IMG/VR virus record: IMGVR_UViG_3300045988_101337
Coordinates: 1-23,444 of that record
DNA: 23,444 nt
Strand: one strand, 5' to 3'
Source of the DNA: a virus
Taxonomy: Duplodnaviria; Heunggongvirae; Uroviricota; Caudoviricetes
This document shows positions 1 through 10,584 of this stretch, piece by piece (position 1 is the stretch's first letter; each line of letters opens with the position of its first letter). Position numbers and translations under genes: made by a program. The notes under the pieces were generated by a model. That model saw only the letters and a list, made by a program, of their open reading frames with translations. It searched no databases and was not told the DNA's origin.

Positions 1-484
1 CTTCGCGCAAGGGTAGATTGTCAGTACTTTTGCCATTAAGAATCAGTAAGCTGGCGGGAAATTCTGCCATGATCGTATGTGCCTTTATGATTGGTCTGTA
101 GATAGTGTAGAGCAGAAAACAAAAGGTGGAGTCAGAACAGGATGAAAGTCGGAGGATAAAAAGTCAGTTCAAGTATGGAGGATTCAGTGGTTACCACCAG
201 GAGCTTGCAATGGGGACAGCGAATACTAACGGCTGCCACCGATAAATTTCAAAAAAGAGCATATGCCTAATATTCAACCAAACAGTGGCATCTTAAATAT
301 ACTATTCCAAATATATTAAAGCCCCCATGGAGTTACCCTGAAGGGCCTCAATGTCCGTAATTCCTACTTATGTAGGAAATGTTGTACAGAACATTTATTA
401 TAATCCTATTCAATTATAATAATCATGCCATTATTATATTTAAACACTAGAGAGTGTCGTTGGTATTTAATGGGGGAAGGTGAG

Positions 485-802
485 ATGAAAAAGATAGCTG
501 CTATATCATTAATTAGTATTTTTATTGTGTCTGGTTGTGCTGTGCATAATGATGAGACAAGTATCGGTAAATTTGGTCTTGCATATAAAAGTAATATTCA
601 GCGTAAACTCGATAACCAATACTACACCGAAGCCGAAGCTTCTTTAGCCAGGGGCAGAATATCTGGTGCAGAAAATATAGTAAAAAATGATGCAGCCCAT
701 TTCTGTGTTACTCAGGGCAAAAAAATGCAGATAGTTGACCTGAAGACAGAAGGTGCAGGATTACATGGCGTCGCTCGTCTGACATTCAAATGTGGAGAGT
801 GA
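485..802 (+). CDS. yegR: Small host lipoprotein, YegR-like (105 aa); listed ORF 425..802 trimmed to the internal ATG at 485
   Basis: ATG at 485 follows a purine-rich RBS (GGGGGAAGGTGAG). N-terminus MKKIAAISLISIFIVSGC has a signal peptide and lipobox cysteine. It sits immediately outside the attL core, where yegR lies at the E. coli P2 site locI; gene name is from memory. Confidence 0.55.
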   Translation: MKKIAAISLISIFIVSGCAVHNDETSIGKFGLAYKSNIQRKLDNQYYTEAEASLARGRISGAENIVKNDAAHFCVTQGKKMQIVDLKTEGAGLHGVARLTFKCGE

Positions 803-961
803 GAATATTTTTTGGTAAGCGTCAAACATGCGCGTTCTGGTTGTGCTTAGCCGGAACCTGTGCGAGCACGATGCCGTTACGTGAAAGGCATCGTGCTATG
901 AAGGGAGATTCTATCGATGTGGTCAATGGAAGACGGTTACCAGAGATAGGGCTTATGCATA

Positions 962-988
962 AAAAAATAAGCCCGTGTAAGGGAGATT
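962..988. other. Prophage attachment site attL core (P2-type 27-bp core)
   Basis: The sequence AAAAAATAAGCCCGTGTAAGGGAGATT matches the P2 att core as I recall it. It lies about 80 bp beyond the 3' end of int, where attL is expected in a P2 prophage. Visibly AT-richer host-like sequence lies to its left. Confidence 0.6.
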
Positions 989-1067
989 TAGGGTGTCACC
1001 AGTAGGGGCTTTCAACGGTACAATGCGGGTTTGAGCGGCATAAATTACCACTGAAAGCCCTTAAACG

Positions 1068-2081
1068 TTACTCTACTGTGGACACTGTGTGGACACTCTC
1101 GACCTCAGTACCACCTCTTAGCGGATTAAGAGAAATGGCGTCCTGAAGGTACTCTGGCGCAAAATGAGCGTAAACCATAGTTTGCTCAATCCGCGTGTGA
1201 CCTAGTATCCGTTGTAGCGTGATAATACTTCCTCCATTAATCATGAAATGAGTGGCAAAGCTGTGCCTTAGTGCATGTGTAGCTTGCCCCATTGGCAAAT
1301 CCGGTTTTATTGCTTTCATTGTTCGTCTGAAGCGAGGGTAATCAGCATCAGGGAATAAAAAACCTCGTTTGTTATCCGCGATCATTTTGGCAACAGCCTC
1401 TGAGATCGGGACGGTGCGTGGTTTGTTTGTTTTCGTTTTAACAAACGTGACGCGGTTATGGATGATATTTTCTGCTTTCAAACGAGCTGCTTCTCCCCAA
1501 CGTGCTCCTGTACTCAGGCAAAGAATCGCAATCTTTTTGTTGTCGCCGTCAAGTGCTGCAAGCAGTAAGGCAATTTCTTCCTGTGTGAGATAGCCTGTTT
1601 CTGGTTTTTCCTCCTTAAGCCTCTTTGTCCCTCTGATAGGGTGCTCACCAAAGAATAACTCCGCTTCAATCAGGGCTGTAAACATGCCGCTAATACATGT
1701 TAAATCACGATTGATACTCGAAGGTTTAATACCCTGACTTCTTCGGGTGGCGCAGTACTGGCTGATAAGGGATTTCGTGATTTGAAATGCGCATGGGTCA
1801 TTCGTTATTTTTGTGAAGATTTCAATTTTTCCAAGATTAGATTTCCCATGCTCTTCGTGTTTACCCTTTAAATCCCACCAGATCTGTGTCAGTTCCGACA
1901 GACGTCGTTTGTCTGTTGGTTTTGATAGCCATTCTTTATTGTGGTGGTTGTACAACGTGTATTTTTCGAAAGCGACAGCTTCGCTTTTCTTATCAAACTT
2001 CCTACGGATGCGTTTTCCGTTACGTCCAGTAGGGCGGATGTCCACTTCATATCGACCATCATCGAGTTTTTTGATTGCCAT
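1068..2081 (-). CDS. int: Phage integrase, tyrosine recombinase (337 aa)
   Basis: 337-aa ORF, the same length as P2 Int. The C-terminal region has tyrosine-recombinase residues (HALRHSFATHF ... MVYAHF). It is adjacent to the att core and preceded by a GGAGGG RBS on the minus strand. Confidence 0.93.
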   Translation of the reverse strand: MAIKKLDDGRYEVDIRPTGRNGKRIRRKFDKKSEAVAFEKYTLYNHHNKEWLSKPTDKRRLSELTQIWWDLKGKHEEHGKSNLGKIEIFTKITNDPCAFQITKSLISQYCATRRSQGIKPSSINRDLTCISGMFTALIEAELFFGEHPIRGTKRLKEEKPETGYLTQEEIALLLAALDGDNKKIAILCLSTGARWGEAARLKAENIIHNRVTFVKTKTNKPRTVPISEAVAKMIADNKRGFLFPDADYPRFRRTMKAIKPDLPMGQATHALRHSFATHFMINGGSIITLQRILGHTRIEQTMVYAHFAPEYLQDAISLNPLRGGTEVESVHTVSTVE

Positions 2082-2196
2082 CAGAAAACCCTCCGAGTGG
2101 TACTTTTTTTTGCTACTACTAATCGCTTTTTTCGTGGTGGCTGAAATTTAGCCACCAATAGTAGGCACTTGTGATGAATATATTCGCGATAAATTG

Positions 2197-2496
2197 TTAA
2201 CCAGTCTTTTGACCGGAGTGGGGCGACGTTGTTTCGTTTTGCCCAAAGTGTGCGAGAGCGGGCGCAATTTGCCCGGCTTCTGGAGCTACCTGATCAGTCA
2301 TGAACCACAAAGTATATTTAGTAAATCTGGGATGTTGTAAGACCTTCATTATGGCTTCAACTCCAGCGTTTTTTGACCGGCTCTCATAGCTCGAAAGTGA
2401 GCTGTAGGCTACACCAGTTAATTCACTGAATTCTTTACGGTTTAACCTTTCAGATTCACGGATTAGCTTCAACTTCTCCGAAACGTCTATTGACAT
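2197..2496 (-). CDS. C: Immunity repressor C (99 aa); listed ORF 2197..2568 trimmed to the internal ATG at 2496
   Basis: Starting at MSIDVSEKL gives 99 aa, the length of P2 C. It has an HTH-like segment (LSRKEFSELTGVAYSSL) and a C-terminus (FTKYTLWFMTDQVAPEAGQIAPALAHFGQNETTSPHSGQKTG) that matches my recollection of P2 C. It is divergent from cox. Confidence 0.85.
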   Translation of the reverse strand: MSIDVSEKLKLIRESERLNRKEFSELTGVAYSSLSSYESRSKNAGVEAIMKVLQHPRFTKYTLWFMTDQVAPEAGQIAPALAHFGQNETTSPHSGQKTG

Positions 2497-2560
2497 AATT
2501 ACTCCGATTGCGTAATTTCTTGCTGATAGTGTGAAATGTTGCGCTTCTGGAGTTATCCTT

Positions 2561-2600
2561 TTAGGCAATAATTAGCCATTAGGAGCCATTAGAAGCACTA
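2561..2600. promoter_or_regulatory. Candidate lysis-lysogeny switch operator/promoter region between C and cox (direct repeats)
   Basis: Closely spaced direct repeats TTAGGCAA / TTAGCCATTAGGAGCCATTAGAAG lie about 20-60 bp upstream of the cox start. In P2, the C repressor binds direct repeats flanking the -10 of the early promoter Pe. Exact half-sites are not resolved. Confidence 0.3.
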
Positions 2601-2617
2601 AGGGAGAATCGTAGCAG

Positions 2618-2893
2618 ATGAATAGACAGCTTGTAAGCGTGACTGATGCCGTGCCTTATCAGGAGTTTGCAAAACTCATTGGTAAAACTCCAAGAGCTGT
2701 AAGGGGCATGATTGAGAAAGGGAAATTACCAGTTATTGAGATTACTGACCCTCAGTCAGTATCGGGGCGTGCTGGTGAATATTGGGTATACCTTCCGGCA
2801 TGGAATAACGGACTAAAACTGGCTTATGAAAGCCGTCCTAAAGAGATTCGTGACGGCTGGTTGATGTGGTTAGGTCTCGGTGAACCACGTTAA
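2618..2893 (+). CDS. cox: Cox-like excisionase / early transcriptional regulator (91 aa)
   Basis: 91-aa ORF, the same length as P2 Cox, in the first position of the rightward early operon and divergent from C. It is preceded by an AAGGGAGAA RBS. Confidence 0.85.
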   Translation: MNRQLVSVTDAVPYQEFAKLIGKTPRAVRGMIEKGKLPVIEITDPQSVSGRAGEYWVYLPAWNNGLKLAYESRPKEIRDGWLMWLGLGEPR

Positions 2894-4161: not shown

Positions 4162-4385
4162 TGCCGGACAACGTAGATTTTATTCAGGAACAACAGGCTG
4201 AATTACTGGAGCGTCAGATTAACGCGGCAAGGGTAAAACATTGCGGAGCTTCTGCGCTGGTTTGCGAAGAGTGTGACGCGCCAATACCTGCTGCCCGTCG
4301 TGCGGCTTATCCGTCAGCCACGCGTTGTGTTTCCTGCCAGTCAGTCTTTGAAGCAAAAAACAAACATTACCGGAGAACGGCATGA
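4161..4385 (+). CDS. TraR/DksA-type C4 zinc-finger protein (P2 orf82 position)
   Basis: 74-aa ORF with a CxxC-N17-CxxC motif (CEECDAPIPAARRAAYPSATRCVSCQ), typical of TraR/DksA-family zinc fingers. Confidence 0.65.
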   Translation: MPDNVDFIQEQQAELLERQINAARVKHCGASALVCEECDAPIPAARRAAYPSATRCVSCQSVFEAKNKHYRRTA

Positions 4386-6926: not shown

Positions 6927-7015
6927 GGATCTCATCTATACAGTATAAGTAGTTTTGACTGTAATTGATTGTTTTTTATATGGTTGCATGCATTAAATCT
7001 ACGTCAATATCATTA

Positions 7016-7024
7016 TGTTATAAT
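7016..7024 (+). promoter_or_regulatory. Candidate extended -10 promoter (TGnTATAAT) for the cargo operon
   Basis: TGTTATAAT at 7016-7024, about 30 bp upstream of the ATG at 7053, in an AT-rich intergenic region after A. There is no good -35, which is consistent with the extended -10 class. Confidence 0.35.
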
Positions 7025-7052
7025 GCATTACTTAAAAATGTTGGAGATAAAA

Positions 7053-7244
7053 ATGTTAAAGCCTGCAGATGTTGTTTGTTTGAAAAGCGGTGGATTTAAA
7101 ATGACTGTATCTGACTCTACTGAAACTCATGCTAAATGTATTTGGCATGATAAAGAAGGAGTTTTGCACGAGGAGTCATTCTCCATTGATTTACTGGAAA
7201 TAGCAGAGAGTAAAAGTGGTATGCTTTGTCGTCCACGTAAGTGA
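7053..7244 (+). CDS. Small DUF2158/YodC-like protein (63 aa), first gene of the cargo cassette; listed ORF 6969..7244 trimmed
   Basis: ATG at 7053 follows a GGAGATAAAA RBS. The N-terminus MLKPADVVCLKSGGFKMTV resembles the conserved start of YodC/DUF2158 small proteins as I recall it. AT-rich. Confidence 0.5.
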   Translation: MLKPADVVCLKSGGFKMTVSDSTETHAKCIWHDKEGVLHEESFSIDLLEIAESKSGMLCRPRK

Positions 7245-7271
7245 ATCATAATAAAATTCACGGGGGAAAGT

Positions 7272-7952
7272 ATGAAACAATACAGCGAATTAGAAAACAA
7301 TGTTAAGAGATTCATTGTTGAGCATGAAAAAGGGATTTCTATTGATGATATTCATCATAAGTTCCGGATGAAGGATGGTCAGAATCGCAAGATGGCAGAT
7401 TATCTTATTAATAATAAAAAGATAATTTTGGAGATGAAAAGTCTTTTTTCTGACAGGGTCAAGAATGTCAATGATAAACTGAATGAGTTGGTTAAAACTG
7501 ATAGTTGGCTTGCAAAAAACTGGCATGGTGCTATTCATTTAGAAGAGTTGATAAAAAGACACCCAGACTCAAAGCGATTTAGAAATGATATAATGAACTT
7601 TGCTTATGAAAATATTAAAACAAAGATAGTTAAGGAAGCTAATAAGCAAATAAATGCAACAAAGGATGTTTTGGATTTAAATGACTCGATTGGCGGGTTG
7701 ATTTTGTTAAATGATAATGTCTTTTCACATGAGTCTAATTATTTGTCAGATGAAATATTATATTTGCTAGGCACAAAGAGATATTCGAGTGTTGAGTTTG
7801 TGGTTTATATTGCAAAATTGATTGATAAACAGGTTGATGTTTGTGTGCTACTTGACAGTCAATCTAAAAATAAAAATTATATTGAATGGTATATGAATAA
7901 TGTTTTTTTATTGAACTGGGCGTCTTTTAATAAATATGCAATAAAGATGTAG
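7272..7952 (+). CDS. Uncharacterised 226-aa protein in the variable A-cos locus (candidate defence protein)
   Basis: Long clean ORF with a GGGGGAAAG RBS, 27 bp after the small ORF and so probably co-transcribed. AT-rich and Lys/Asn-rich. No P2 counterpart. A possible D ... ExK arrangement (ADYLINNKKIILEMKS) is only a motif-level hint of a PD-(D/E)xK nuclease. Confidence 0.6.
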   Translation: MKQYSELENNVKRFIVEHEKGISIDDIHHKFRMKDGQNRKMADYLINNKKIILEMKSLFSDRVKNVNDKLNELVKTDSWLAKNWHGAIHLEELIKRHPDSKRFRNDIMNFAYENIKTKIVKEANKQINATKDVLDLNDSIGGLILLNDNVFSHESNYLSDEILYLLGTKRYSSVEFVVYIAKLIDKQVDVCVLLDSQSKNKNYIEWYMNNVFLLNWASFNKYAIKM

Positions 7953-8271
7953 TGGTGTGGATGGATATGAAATGAGTCAACCAAGATGCACCTTGGTCAG
8001 TAATCTCATGTGAGATACCACATATAACACCAAAAGTGTCAGGTTGATGGCCATTGTTCACCGTTTACAGCAGATTATGGTCAACGAAAATCTGACGCCT
8101 GACGAGCTGGTCGGGTGTGCCGAAATAGTCTGGGATAATTACGGGCGGTTTAACTATATCGGTCAGTCCAGAGTTGCGCCACCACCACGCAGACGATAGA
8201 GAACGCCGCCAGTCGTGAAACTTGTTTTCAGGCTGGCGGGGTTGAACAACGAGCGAAGTGAGGCGTTAGCA

Positions 8272-9213
8272 TTAAGTTAATTTTAATGAATGGTACTCTA
8301 TCGAGCTGATTGTAGATGCGATATATTTACGATCATTTACAGAGAGTATTGCCGCTAGTAGACGACATACCAGAGCCTGCATTTGTAGCAATATATCGCT
8401 ACCATATTGACAATCATTGATACTAGAGAAACCAAGCGGTTGCCCATTAAAAATGGCTTCATGAAAATTATCATTGCGTATAACTGAAACATTACATTCA
8501 TCTGTTGCCCATGACGGGATTTTTACACCGTAATTTTCGCACATCCAATACACTCTATTTTGATGAGATGGTTTTTTCTCTTTAATGACTTTATCCCTTT
8601 CATCCCATGCTATAGCAAAACAGCAATCAAGAGCCATATAAAGATACTGGAATTTCTCAAAGGAAAGGTATAGTGGGTTATGTGACAGGAATAGGGAGTG
8701 TATCACCGCAGCTATTCTTTTAATGGAGCGATCATCTTTTTGTTTGTCTTTTATATAGTTAAGTGCTAGCTCTATTACTTCTTTTTCAGAGCATCCAACG
8801 AGAATAAAGTCGGTTAACTTAGTGGGCTTGATAGTGGTTGCATCAAGAAAACCAGCGTCAGTGGTTGTCAATCTTATACCCTTGAAAAAAGAGAGGCACC
8901 ACACAACAAAGTTGAGAGTTTCTAACGAGGATGTGTTTTTTAATTTTAGTGTGTGCGTTTTGGGCATGCCGAATACTCGGTAACTATAAGGCATTGTGCA
9001 TGTGTCACCATTAAGGTTATATACCTTTCGATTCCCAGGGTATATCCAACCATTAACAACGTTTTTATCATTGTTAATACGTTCCACGTTCTCAATAAGA
9101 CCGGGTAAAGTACGCAAAGAAAATTGTTCAGTCTCAATGTTAACTTCTACTGGATAGTATCCAAACTCCGAAATAATCTCATTTGGTTGCTGTTCGTCAA
9201 CTTCACCTTGCAT
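8272..9213 (-). CDS. Uncharacterised 313-aa protein with a C-terminal RNxxxH (HEPN-like) motif; candidate abortive-infection or defence effector occupying the P2 old position
   Basis: Clean 313-aa ORF on the minus strand with a GGAGA RBS upstream of the ATG at 9213. AT-rich. It contains RNDNFH (R-x4-H) near the C-terminus and a second R-x5-H (RIAAVIH). It is convergent with the 226-aa gene. No P2 homologue is recognisable. Confidence 0.6.
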   Translation of the reverse strand: MQGEVDEQQPNEIISEFGYYPVEVNIETEQFSLRTLPGLIENVERINNDKNVVNGWIYPGNRKVYNLNGDTCTMPYSYRVFGMPKTHTLKLKNTSSLETLNFVVWCLSFFKGIRLTTTDAGFLDATTIKPTKLTDFILVGCSEKEVIELALNYIKDKQKDDRSIKRIAAVIHSLFLSHNPLYLSFEKFQYLYMALDCCFAIAWDERDKVIKEKKPSHQNRVYWMCENYGVKIPSWATDECNVSVIRNDNFHEAIFNGQPLGFSSINDCQYGSDILLQMQALVCRLLAAILSVNDRKYIASTISSIEYHSLKLT

Positions 9214-9451
9214 AACTTTCTCCGTTCAAAAACAGGCACGATAATTCTCGTAAGCCTATCATGTTCGCAAAGTATCCATACCTGTGGATTTTGTAAATTT
9301 AAGTTGATTTGTCATTAAATAAGCCGTTGCATGCAACAAGTGAATGTTTTTGCATGCGTCGGGGATGTCCGTTCAGGCTGCGTGCGGTCAGGACTGGTGC
9401 GGATCCATAGTATCTATGCAACTGCATTAAAACCGCCCCATGAAGCGGGCG

Positions 9452-9470
9452 GGCGAGGCGGGGAAAGCAC
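9452..9470. other. cos site (P2-type 19-nt cohesive end region)
   Basis: GGCGAGGCGGGGAAAGCAC matches the P2/186 cohesive end as I recall it. It lies about 80 bp beyond the 3' end of portal gene Q, as in P2. Confidence 0.6.
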
Positions 9471-9522
9471 TGCGCGCTGTTTTGTGCGGTGGTGAGTGTG
9501 TGAGGGCGTGATGACGGGGTGT

Positions 9523-9544
9523 AAAAAAGCCGCCCGCAGGCGGC
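9523..9544 (-). terminator. Rho-independent terminator after Q (minus strand)
   Basis: Minus-strand reading gives GCCGCC-TGCG-GGCGGC followed by TTTTTT, immediately after the Q stop codon. Confidence 0.55.
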
Positions 9545-9549
9545 GATGT

Positions 9550-10584
9550 TCAGCCGTTGTCAGTGTCCAGTGAGTAGTTTTTAAAGCTGATGACCTCCTG
9601 ACCGAGCCAGCCGTTTATCTCGCGGATCCTGTCCTGTAACGGGATAAGCTCATTGCGGACAAAGACCTTTGCCACTTTCTCAATATCTCCCAGTGACCCG
9701 ACGTTCTCCGGCTTGCCGCCCATCAACTGAAAGGGGATACGGTGCGCGTCCAGCAGGTCAGCGGCGCTGGCTTTTTTGATATTAAAAAAATCGTCCTTCG
9801 TTGCCACTTCACTGAGCGGGATAATTTTAATGCCGTCAGCTTTCCCCTGCGGGGCATAGAGAAACAGATTTTTAAAGTTGTTGCGACCTTTCGACTTAAC
9901 CATGTTTTCGCGAAGCATTTCGATATCGTTGCGATCCTGCACGGCATCGGTGACGTACATGATGTATCCGGCATGTGCGCCATTTTCGTAATACTTGCGG
10001 CGGAACAGCGTAGCTGATTCATTCAGCCAGGCAGAATTAAGGGCGCTGAGATATTCCGGCAGGCCGTACAGCTCCTGATTAATATCCGGCTCCAGCAGGT
10101 GAAACACGGAGCCGGGCGCGAAAGGTGTCGGCTCGTTGAAGGACGGCACCCACCAGTAAACATCCTCCTCAACACCACGGCGGGTATATTTTGCCGGTGA
10201 GGTTTCCAGTCTGATGACCTTACCGGTGGTGCTGTAGCGCTTTTCCAGAAACGCATTACCGAACACCAGAAAATCCAGCACAAAGCGGCTGAAATCCTGC
10301 TGGGAAAGCCACGGGTGCGGAATAAACGTTGAAGCCAGAATATTACGTTTGACGTAAATCGGTGAGCTGTGATGTACGGCAGCACGCAGGCTTTTTGCCA
10401 GACCGGTAAAGCTGACCGGTGGCTCATACCATCTGCCGTTACTGATGCACTCGACGTAATCCAGAATGTCACGGCGGTCGAGTACCGGCACCGGCTCACC
10501 AAAGGTGAATGCCTCCATTTTCGGGGCGCTGGCGGTGATTGTTTTTGCCGCAGGTTGCGGTGTTTTCCCTTTTTTCTTGCTCAT
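9550..10584 (-). CDS. Q: Portal protein (344 aa)
   Basis: 344-aa ORF, the same length as P2 gpQ. It is translationally coupled to P (start and stop overlap at 10584) and adjacent to cos. Confidence 0.93.
   Translation of the reverse strand: MSKKKGKTPQPAAKTITASAPKMEAFTFGEPVPVLDRRDILDYVECISNGRWYEPPVSFTGLAKSLRAAVHHSSPIYVKRNILASTFIPHPWLSQQDFSRFVLDFLVFGNAFLEKRYSTTGKVIRLETSPAKYTRRGVEEDVYWWVPSFNEPTPFAPGSVFHLLEPDINQELYGLPEYLSALNSAWLNESATLFRRKYYENGAHAGYIMYVTDAVQDRNDIEMLRENMVKSKGRNNFKNLFLYAPQGKADGIKIIPLSEVATKDDFFNIKKASAADLLDAHRIPFQLMGGKPENVGSLGDIEKVAKVFVRNELIPLQDRIREINGWLGQEVISFKNYSLDTDNG

What the first reader, a model, noticed from the sequence alone, without database searches (positions are those of the whole stretch)
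962..988. attL core and integration next to a yegR-like gene
The 27-bp P2-type core lies between the host lipoprotein gene and int. This defines the left prophage boundary at about 962-988 and is consistent with integration at the E. coli locI site; the locI and yegR assignments are from memory.
Basis: partly seen in the sequence, partly recalled or inferred. Interest (0 to 1): 0.45.

Follow-up and report, generated by a model that had tools for sequence, protein, structure and literature searches.

The report
P2-type prophage left junction (attL)
The 27 bases at 962-988 are the left junction of a phage P2-type prophage at P2's well-known E. coli integration site, so the finding is correct but ordinary; the 27 bases are also the last 27 bases of the small-RNA gene cyaR.

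Summary
Confirmed and already known. Window 962-988 is an exact copy of the 27-bp phage P2 attP core. Similarity to P2 starts exactly at 962. Similarity to prophage-free E. coli ends exactly at 988. To the left lie yegS and yegR. To the right lie the P2 Cox-binding region, the two TGTGGACA integrase arm repeats and an integrase 336/337 identical to P2 Int. The window ends inside the prophage, so the second core copy (attR) cannot be seen. In three related lysogens it sits just after ogr, next to yegQ. A prophage-free strain has the predicted uninterrupted site at 100% identity.

- The core is the last 27 nt of the sRNA gene cyaR (ryeE), and integration leaves cyaR whole at attR. That phages target ryeE is already published.
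- The "host" flank is not ancestral. About 65 of 120 enterobacterial species have cyaR directly followed by yegS. E. coli has a roughly 0.8-kb yegR islet exactly at the att point. A decayed core copy (158-184) bounds it on one side, and a relic of the P2 P-arm integrase site (914-941) plus the intact core bounds it on the other. It looks like a fossil of an earlier integration.
- Natural core variants place strand exchange to the right of core position 13.

The parts
1..70 (-). 5' end of yegS (lipid kinase); ancestral host flank
   Evidence: Annotated yegS at the same coordinates in the near-identical relative SBF45 (L129 1-70). It aligns with yegS of Escherichia sp. E1V33.
158..184 (+). Decayed copy of the att core (AAAAAGTCAGTTCAAGTATGGAGGATT); proposed fossil attL of an earlier integration and left end of the yegR islet
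   Evidence: It matches the P2 core at 18/27 positions, and the E1V33 core at 17/27, in exact register with the junction found independently by aligning E. coli with E1V33, which lacks the islet. It is the best non-self match to the core in the whole window on both strands.
185..961 (.). yegR islet: about 0.8 kb found in E. coli but absent from the same place in 65 of 120 enterobacterial species, inserted exactly at the 3' end of cyaR
   Evidence: In those species yegS starts about 90 nt after the cyaR terminator; among these loci yegR was found only in the E. coli one. GC content is 0.30-0.47.
485..802 (+). yegR, a predicted small lipoprotein of 105 aa
   Evidence: RefSeq annotation. The family PF27694 is almost confined to E. 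coli and Shigella.
865..897 (.). Perfect 11-bp stem hairpin (AGCACGATGCC ... GGCATCGTGCT), 16 nt before the P-arm relic, where P2-like phages have the ogr terminator
   Evidence: Arm coordinates. Comparison with P2 and other attR sequences. Its function was not tested.
901..910 (+). AAGGGAGATT, a repeat of the last 10 nt of the core; unexplained
   Evidence: It varies between strains: K-12 has AAGGAGGATT.
914..941 (+). Relic of the P2 P-arm integrase binding site inside the bacterial 'B' arm
   Evidence: The window has TCGATGTGGTCAATGGAAGACGGTTACC. The P2 'Int P arm' site is TCGATGTGGTCAATGTGTGGACGTGACC. The first 15 of 15 bases and 21 of 28 overall are identical. The E. coli B arm scores 20 against the P2 P region; 300 shuffles gave a maximum of 14.
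962..988 (+). attL core (O): the 27-bp segment shared by phage and host. On the - strand it is an orphan copy of the last 27 nt of cyaR (terminator loop, 3' stem and U-tail)
1005..1078 (.). Cox (excision directionality factor) binding region of the P' arm
   Evidence: 0 mismatches to the region annotated 'protein_bind Cox' in NC_001895, 24399-24472.
1076..1102 (+). P' arm integrase binding site, with TGTGGACA at 1077-1084 and 1088-1095
   Evidence: One mismatch, at 1102 and outside the repeats, to the P2 'Int P' arm' feature 24470-24496. The arm consensus tgTGGaCa is given in PMC3448106.
1068..2081 (-). int, a tyrosine integrase of 337 aa
   Evidence: 336/337 identical to P2 Int. It also matches tyrosine recombinase models.
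2197..2496 (-). Immunity repressor C (99 aa), mosaic: the C-terminal half is P2-like and the N-terminal half is different
   Evidence: 65% identity to P2 C. The nucleotide match to P2 ends at window 2326.
2618..2893 (+). cox, excisionase and repressor (91 aa)
   Evidence: 84% identity to P2 Cox.

Best explanation
Window 962-988 is the crossover core of attL (B-O-P'), the left junction of a P2-family (Peduovirus) prophage. The prophage is integrated at P2's standard E. coli site, between yegR and cyaR-yegQ.

How it works. The first two paragraphs below are established knowledge of P2; the third is shown here.

P2 Int is a tyrosine recombinase with two DNA-binding specificities. Its N-terminal domain binds the TGTGGACA arm repeats. 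Its core-binding and catalytic domains act on the 27-bp core. With host IHF bound on the P arm, Int recombines attP (P-O-P') with the chromosomal site (B-O-B'). The products are attL (B-O-P', seen here) and attR (P-O-B', beyond the end of the window, after ogr).

Excision needs Int, IHF and Cox. Cox binds between the core and the P' arm, so its site lies on attL.

Shown here: the core, the Cox region, both P' repeats and int are present and essentially identical to P2. The chromosomal core is the last 27 nt of the sRNA gene cyaR, so integration rebuilds a complete cyaR at attR and leaves an orphan 3' fragment at attL.

Inferred: strand exchange lies to the right of core position 13, probably in the terminator-loop part (about positions 20-26). 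Lysogens of hosts that carry a T at position 13 keep T in attL and have the phage's C in attR.
For: - The core matches exactly, once, with none expected by chance, and is identical to the annotated P2 attP core.
- Similarity to P2 starts at 962. Similarity to the host ends at 988.
- The Cox site has 0 mismatches. The P' arm site has 1 mismatch, outside the repeats.
- Int is 336/337 identical to P2 Int.
- 808 of 5,426 complete E. coli genomes have this integrase next to yegR.
- Relatives carry two core copies that bracket a prophage of 30.6-34 kb (core to core), ending ogr-core-cyaR-yegQ: STW0522-31, SBF45 and JJ2434.
- The reconstructed empty site (left flank + core + right flank) is 100% identical over 727 bp to strain D7. 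4,562 genomes have the site uninterrupted or nearly so.
- At attR of STW0522-31, Rfam finds a full-length CyaR (100.7 bits against a gathering score of 47) whose 3' end is the core.
- In NC_000913.3 cyaR is annotated at 2167114-2167200 and the core lies at 2167174-2167200.
- PMC3603311 states that ryeE in E. coli was already known to be targeted by phages.
- Crossover side: 22 genomes have a T-allele attL. JJ2434 has T at attL and C at attR. An empty ST131 site has T.
Against: - The right end of this particular prophage is outside the window, so its completeness and its own attR are inferred from relatives.
- No complete genome in the collection matches the whole window closely. The best matches were 97.0% identity at full coverage and 99.3% at 90% coverage.
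- The crossover inference probably rests on one lineage (ST131) and possibly on a single integration event. Two genomes carry T at attR, and one of them has T at both ends. The simple model does not explain these.
Confidence: 0.93

Rival explanations
1. The element is a defective or truncated P2 remnant, like K-12's cryptic prophage PR-X, and not a complete excisable prophage. The core would then mark an old junction that is no longer active.
For: The right end is not in the window. P2 remnants at this site are common: K-12 has one, and there are remnant-like loci in Citrobacter sp. Awk 4, a Buttiauxella species and E. albertii.
Against: The window holds a full 27-bp core, whereas K-12's left copy is cut after 18 nt. 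It also holds an intact int, C and cox, and about 22 kb of P2-order genes with P2-like ORF lengths, from int to the tail-fibre gene. Close relatives are complete from attL to attR.
Confidence: 0.06
2. The 27-mer is host sequence only, for example a terminator belonging to yegR, that happens to resemble the P2 core. The true prophage boundary would lie elsewhere.
For: The sequence does form half of a terminator, and an 8-bp inverted repeat (949-956 / 967-974) spans the B/O boundary.
Against: P2 similarity starts exactly at 962 and host similarity ends exactly at 988. The terminator belongs to cyaR on the opposite strand, not to yegR. No chance match is expected.
Confidence: 0.005
3. The prophage sits at a secondary P2 site, not at the preferred one.
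For: From memory only: P2 can use several secondary sites with partial core matches.
Against: The core is 27/27 identical. The flanks are those of the yegR-cyaR-yegQ site given for P2 in PMC3448106.
Confidence: 0.005

Closest known systems
Bacteriophage P2 attL at the preferred E. coli site (called locI, from memory), as annotated for attP in NC_001895 / AF063097
   Same: The 27-bp core and the Cox-binding region are identical. The two TGTGGACA P' repeats are the same. Int is 99.7% identical. The chromosomal flanks (yegR on one side; cyaR-yegQ on the other in relatives) are the same.
   Different: The phage is not P2 itself. The similarity breaks inside gene C: C is 65% and Cox 84% identical, so the phage probably has a different immunity type. 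The gpA-gpQ accessory region carries different genes from P2's tin and old.
Cryptic prophage PR-X of E. coli K-12 (yegZ-ogrK remnant)
   Same: It occupies the same site and has the same attR core overlapping the end of cyaR.
   Different: K-12 keeps only the end of gene D, ogr and attR. Its left core is cut after 18 nt and int is gone. Here the left junction and int are intact.
Integrases that target the 3' end of tRNA, tmRNA or sRNA genes and restore the gene (e.g. phage 186 at tRNA-Ile, Fels-2/SopE-phi at ssrA; PMC3448106)
   Same: The identity segment covers the 3' part of a structured RNA gene from the terminator loop onward, so the gene stays whole at attR. The crossover appears to lie in or near the loop.
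   Different: The target is an Hfq-type sRNA gene, not a tRNA-like gene. P2-type integrases are described as mostly integrating between genes.

Membership tests
P2-type attL (B-O-P') | Core identical to the P2 attP core | tested here: met
   27/27, a unique match in the window.
P2-type attL (B-O-P') | P' arm with two direct TGTGGACA repeats at the P2 distance from the core | tested here: met
   Repeats at 1077-1084 and 1088-1095, in the same register as P2 24470-24496.
P2-type attL (B-O-P') | Cox-binding region between the core and the P' arm | tested here: met
   Window 1005-1078 has 0 mismatches to the annotated P2 Cox site.
P2-type attL (B-O-P') | Adjacent P2-type tyrosine integrase gene reading toward the core | tested here: met
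   int at 1068-2081 (-), 336/337 identical to P2 Int.
P2-type attL (B-O-P') | Phage similarity on one side of the core only and host similarity on the other side only | tested here: met
   Breakpoints at 962 and 988.
P2-type attL (B-O-P') | Matching attR core at the other prophage end, after ogr | not testable with these tools
   The window ends within the prophage. The feature is present in the relatives STW0522-31, SBF45 and JJ2434.
P2-type attL (B-O-P') | Int/IHF/Cox-dependent excision that regenerates attP and attB | not testable with these tools
   This needs an experiment.
Integration at the P2 preferred site (yegR / cyaR-yegQ; 'locI') | Left flank is yegS-yegR | tested here: met
Integration at the P2 preferred site (yegR / cyaR-yegQ; 'locI') | An uninterrupted site made of left flank + one core + cyaR-yegQ exists in prophage-free strains | tested here: met
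   Strain D7 is 100% identical over 727 bp. 4,562 genomes have at least 80% coverage.
Integration at the P2 preferred site (yegR / cyaR-yegQ; 'locI') | Agreement with the published P2 integration coordinate, and the name locI | tested here: inconclusive
   PMC3448106 gives MG1655 position 2165238 in an older coordinate version. The K-12 core is at 2167174-2167200 in NC_000913.3. The two agree if the version offset is about 2 kb, which I know only from memory. The papers held do not contain the name locI.
RNA-gene 3'-end integration that restores the gene | The core coincides with the 3' end of an RNA gene, and the gene is complete at attR | tested here: met
   The annotated end of cyaR coincides with the end of the core. 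A full-length CyaR model match is found at attR of a relative. Only a fragment is present in the window.
Cryptic P2 remnant (PR-X type) | Truncated left core and loss of int and the early genes | tested here: not met
   The full core, int, C, cox and about 22 kb of P2 genes are present.

The most novel reading that the evidence does not exclude
P2's favourite E. coli site may be second-hand. On this reading the roughly 0.8-kb yegR islet is the fossil of an earlier P2-like integration at the 3' end of cyaR, so the present 'attB' is really that fossil's attR. Its B arm still holds half of a P-arm integrase site (914-941). The stronger reading is that this leftover half-site still binds the arm-binding domain of Int and helps make this site the preferred one, or alters attL excision. 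I put the fossil part alone at about 0.6. The probability given below is for the functional claim.
Probability: 0.1. Interest if true: 0.45.

Novelty: already known. Interest (0 to 1): 0.15.

Why it matters
The result fixes the left end of the prophage to the base, which is useful for annotation and for designing junction PCR. It also shows that all the DNA sites needed on attL for excision are intact.

The additions have modest value. They remind annotators that this att core belongs to cyaR. They show that the 3' end of cyaR is an integration point for P2-like phages across many enterobacterial genera. They also suggest that yegR arrived in E. coli through that same point. None of this changes current understanding of P2 integration.

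Tried and rejected
- **attR in the window:** a search for a second core copy, allowing up to 3 mismatches, found none. The window ends in the tail-fibre region.
- **The window's own genome:** a search among 5,426 complete E. coli genomes found no exact match. The best were 97.0% identity at full coverage and 99.3% at 90% coverage, so attR had to be read from relatives.
- **CyaR in the window:** an Rfam scan of 700-1300 found no CyaR, only a meaningless weak match. The attL copy is a fragment.
- **Terminator for int:** I tested whether the orphan core forms a terminator for int on the - strand. The fold pairs the core with the B arm and places no hairpin before the U-run, and the terminator scan found nothing there. 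Rejected.
- **yegR as phage cargo:** the only phage-database matches are records that include host flank (ON470606, AY639599). Distant YegR homologues sit in non-phage contexts. The PHROG match probably comes from such flanks. There is no support for this idea.
- **Literature:** the primary papers on the P2 att sites and on CyaR (PMC1482927, PMC2620814) are not held. Several searches returned nothing relevant.
- **The 901-910 repeat:** I considered that 884-910 is a third decayed core. Outside the 10-mer the match is at chance level (5 of 17), so this stays unexplained.

Full report
**Observation.** The 27-mer AAAAAATAAGCCCGTGTAAGGGAGATT occurs once in the window, at 962-988 on the + strand. 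No other site matches within three mismatches, and none appeared in 100 shuffles. The P2 reference record NC_001895 annotates exactly this sequence as attP and as the Int core-binding site, at 24356-24382.

**Boundaries.**
- A megablast of window 900-2700 against phage genomes aligns to P2 from query base 63, which is window 962, at 97.9% identity.
- The sequence left of 962 is unrelated to the P2 P arm (23% identity over 100 nt). It is 100% identical to the chromosome of related E. coli.
- To the right of 988 the window follows P2 (TAGGGTG...), whereas prophage-free chromosomes continue ACACAGG.
- The shared segment is therefore exactly 27 bp and marks the prophage's left end.

**What surrounds it.**
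- On the left are the start of yegS (1-70, -) and yegR (485-802, +), named as such in RefSeq.
- On the right, window 1005-1078 matches the P2 feature 'protein_bind Cox' with no mismatches.
- Window 1076-1102 matches the P2 'Int P' arm' feature with one mismatch, which lies outside the two TGTGGACA repeats at 1077 and 1088.
- The int gene (1068-2081, -) encodes a protein 336/337 identical to P2 Int.
- The repressor C is only 65% identical and Cox 84% identical to their P2 counterparts, and the nucleotide match to P2 stops at window 2326, inside gene C. The phage is therefore a mosaic P2 relative. It has P2's integration module and probably a different immunity.
- The rest of the window follows the P2 gene order as far as the tail-fibre gene.

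**The other end.** No complete genome in the collection is the source of the window. Three related lysogens were therefore examined.

| Strain | attL core | attR core |
|---|---|---|
| STW0522-31 | L003 4722-4748 | L003 37649-37675 |
| SBF45 (99.3% identical over 90% of the window) | L129 961-987 | L129 31523-31549 |
| JJ2434 | L136 38307-38333 | L136 4324-4350 |

In each strain the second copy follows ogr and is followed by yegQ.

Joining the left flank, one core and the right flank gives a 727-bp sequence that is 100% identical to the prophage-free strain D7. 4,562 of 5,426 genomes cover at least 80% of it. 808 genomes have this integrase next to yegR.

Nilsson et al. 2011 place the P2 site at MG1655 position 2165238, in older coordinates. 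The K-12 attR core lies at 2167174-2167200 in NC_000913.3, between yegQ and ogrK. The two agree given the roughly 2-kb shift between sequence versions, a figure I know only from memory. The label 'locI' could not be verified in the papers held.

**What the core is.** NC_000913.3 annotates the sRNA gene cyaR at 2167114-2167200, and the core occupies its last 27 nt. At attR of STW0522-31, Rfam finds a full-length CyaR (100.7 bits; gathering score 47). The core supplies its terminator loop, 3' stem and U-tail. The window itself contains only the orphan 27-nt fragment. P2 thus integrates into the 3' end of an sRNA gene and restores it, much as many integrases do with tRNA genes. This is known: PMC3603311 says ryeE (the old name of cyaR) in E. 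coli was already known to be targeted by phages.

**Mechanism.** From established knowledge of P2 (annotations; PMC3448106 and PMC3936717):
- Int binds the arm repeats with its N-terminal domain and the core with its catalytic part.
- IHF bends the P arm.
- Cox binds its boxes between the core and the P' arm, forms a filament, blocks integration and is required for excision.
- All the sites that belong on attL are present here and match P2.

An added inference comes from natural variation. ST131-type hosts have T at core position 13 in the empty site. 22 genomes have T in the attL core. In JJ2434 attL has T and attR has the phage's C. The left part of the attL core therefore comes from the host, which puts strand exchange to the right of position 13. 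The cyaR terminator loop (about positions 20-26) is the likely place; that last step is an inference.

Two caveats apply. These genomes probably share one ancestry. Two genomes have T at attR, which is unexplained.

- In 65 loci, yegS starts about 90 nt after the cyaR terminator.
- 30 loci have an insertion between the two genes.
- 12 loci have a clear P2-type P arm directly after cyaR, several of them with ogr and gene D. These span Citrobacter, Buttiauxella, Enterobacter, Trabulsiella and others.
- The 3' end of cyaR is therefore an integration point for P2-like phages across many genera.

Escherichia sp. E1V33 has the direct cyaR-yegS arrangement. Aligned with it, E. coli carries about 0.8 kb extra exactly at the att point. 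The left junction of the extra DNA is a 27-mer at window 158-184. It matches the core at 18/27 positions in exact register, giving a single-test binomial p between 6e-6 and 8e-4.

The right end carries a relic of the P2 P-arm Int site at 914-941: the first 15 of 15 bases and 21 of 28 overall match the annotated site. It begins where the annotated site begins and is followed by the intact core. The alignment score of the E. coli B arm to the P2 P region is 20, against a maximum of 14 in 300 shuffles. The islet has low GC content.

I read this as the fossil of an earlier P2-like integration, with the present prophage sitting in the fossil's attR. Whether yegR was that element's cargo is unknown. 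YegR has no genuine phage homologues, and its distant relatives lie in non-phage contexts.

**Verdict.** The finding and its interpretation are right, and they describe textbook P2 biology. Interest is low. The fossil reading of the yegR islet is the only part I could not find described. It is a modest evolutionary footnote unless the relic arm site proves to be functional.

Noticed in passing
window 158-184 and 185-961: A decayed copy of the att core sits at the left edge of a roughly 0.8-kb yegR islet. The islet is absent from the cyaR-yegS interval of Escherichia sp. E1V33 and of most other Enterobacteriaceae. It looks like the fossil of an earlier integration.
   Followed up: yes
window 914-941: The bacterial arm next to the core contains a relic of the P2 P-arm integrase site (TCGATGTGGTCAATG is exact, then degenerate). 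The IHF region is about 15 nt shorter than in P2.
   Followed up: yes
window 901-910: AAGGGAGATT repeats the last 10 nt of the core, 52 nt upstream of the core and just before the P-arm relic. It varies between strains (K-12 has AAGGAGGATT). No explanation was found.
   Followed up: partly
window 865-897 and 949-974: There is a perfect 11-bp hairpin where P2-like phages have the ogr terminator. An 8-bp inverted repeat, GGGCTTAT / ATAAGCCC, spans the B/O boundary. Their functions are unknown.
   Followed up: no
window ~2326 (inside gene C, 2197-2496): This is a mosaic breakpoint. int-att and the 3' half of C are about 98% identical to P2, while the 5' half of C, the switch region and cox differ (C 65% and Cox 84% protein identity). 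The phage probably has a different immunity from P2 but the same integration module.
   Followed up: partly
window 6930-9550 (ORFs 6969-7244 +, 7272-7952 +, 8272-9213 -): The gpA-gpQ accessory region is described as an anti-phage defence hotspot in P2-like phages (PMC9122126). Here it holds a DUF2158 protein and two proteins of 226 and 313 aa. These two have no Pfam, PADLOC or PDB match and fall in unknown-function PHROGs 20483 and 5937. The same genes occur in the ST131 strain JJ2434.
   Followed up: partly
L002 (ON470606.1, Escherichia phage vB_EcoM-720R8): This 'phage' record includes host chromosome (gat repressor, yegS, yegR) left of attL, so it is a prophage cut-out with flank. Such records make yegR look phage-borne in phage databases, and PHROG 21109 probably reflects this.
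   Followed up: partly
L136 (JJ2434) 38307-38333 vs 4324-4350; H112, H113: ST131 lysogens have chimeric cores, with the host's T at position 13 in attL and the phage's C in attR, so integration changes one base of the cyaR terminator stem. Two genomes (O25b:H4 and MSB1_4E) have T at attR, which is unexplained.
   Followed up: partly
L004 / L007 (E. coli K-12): The left end of K-12's P2 remnant is a core cut after 18 nt and joined directly to the end of gene D. The deletion that made the remnant therefore started inside the attL core.
   Followed up: yes
L022, L050, L075 and other loci: Remnant-like P2 P arms lie directly after cyaR in Citrobacter sp. Awk 4, a Buttiauxella species and E. albertii. 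Unrelated insertions of 0.3-4.4 kb lie between cyaR and yegS in many Enterobacter, Kluyvera, Raoultella and Salmonella genomes. The 3' end of cyaR is a general insertion hotspot.
   Followed up: partly
L005 (ST131) between yegR and the B arm: A 169-bp AT-rich insertion lies just after the yegR stop codon, compared with other E. coli.
   Followed up: no
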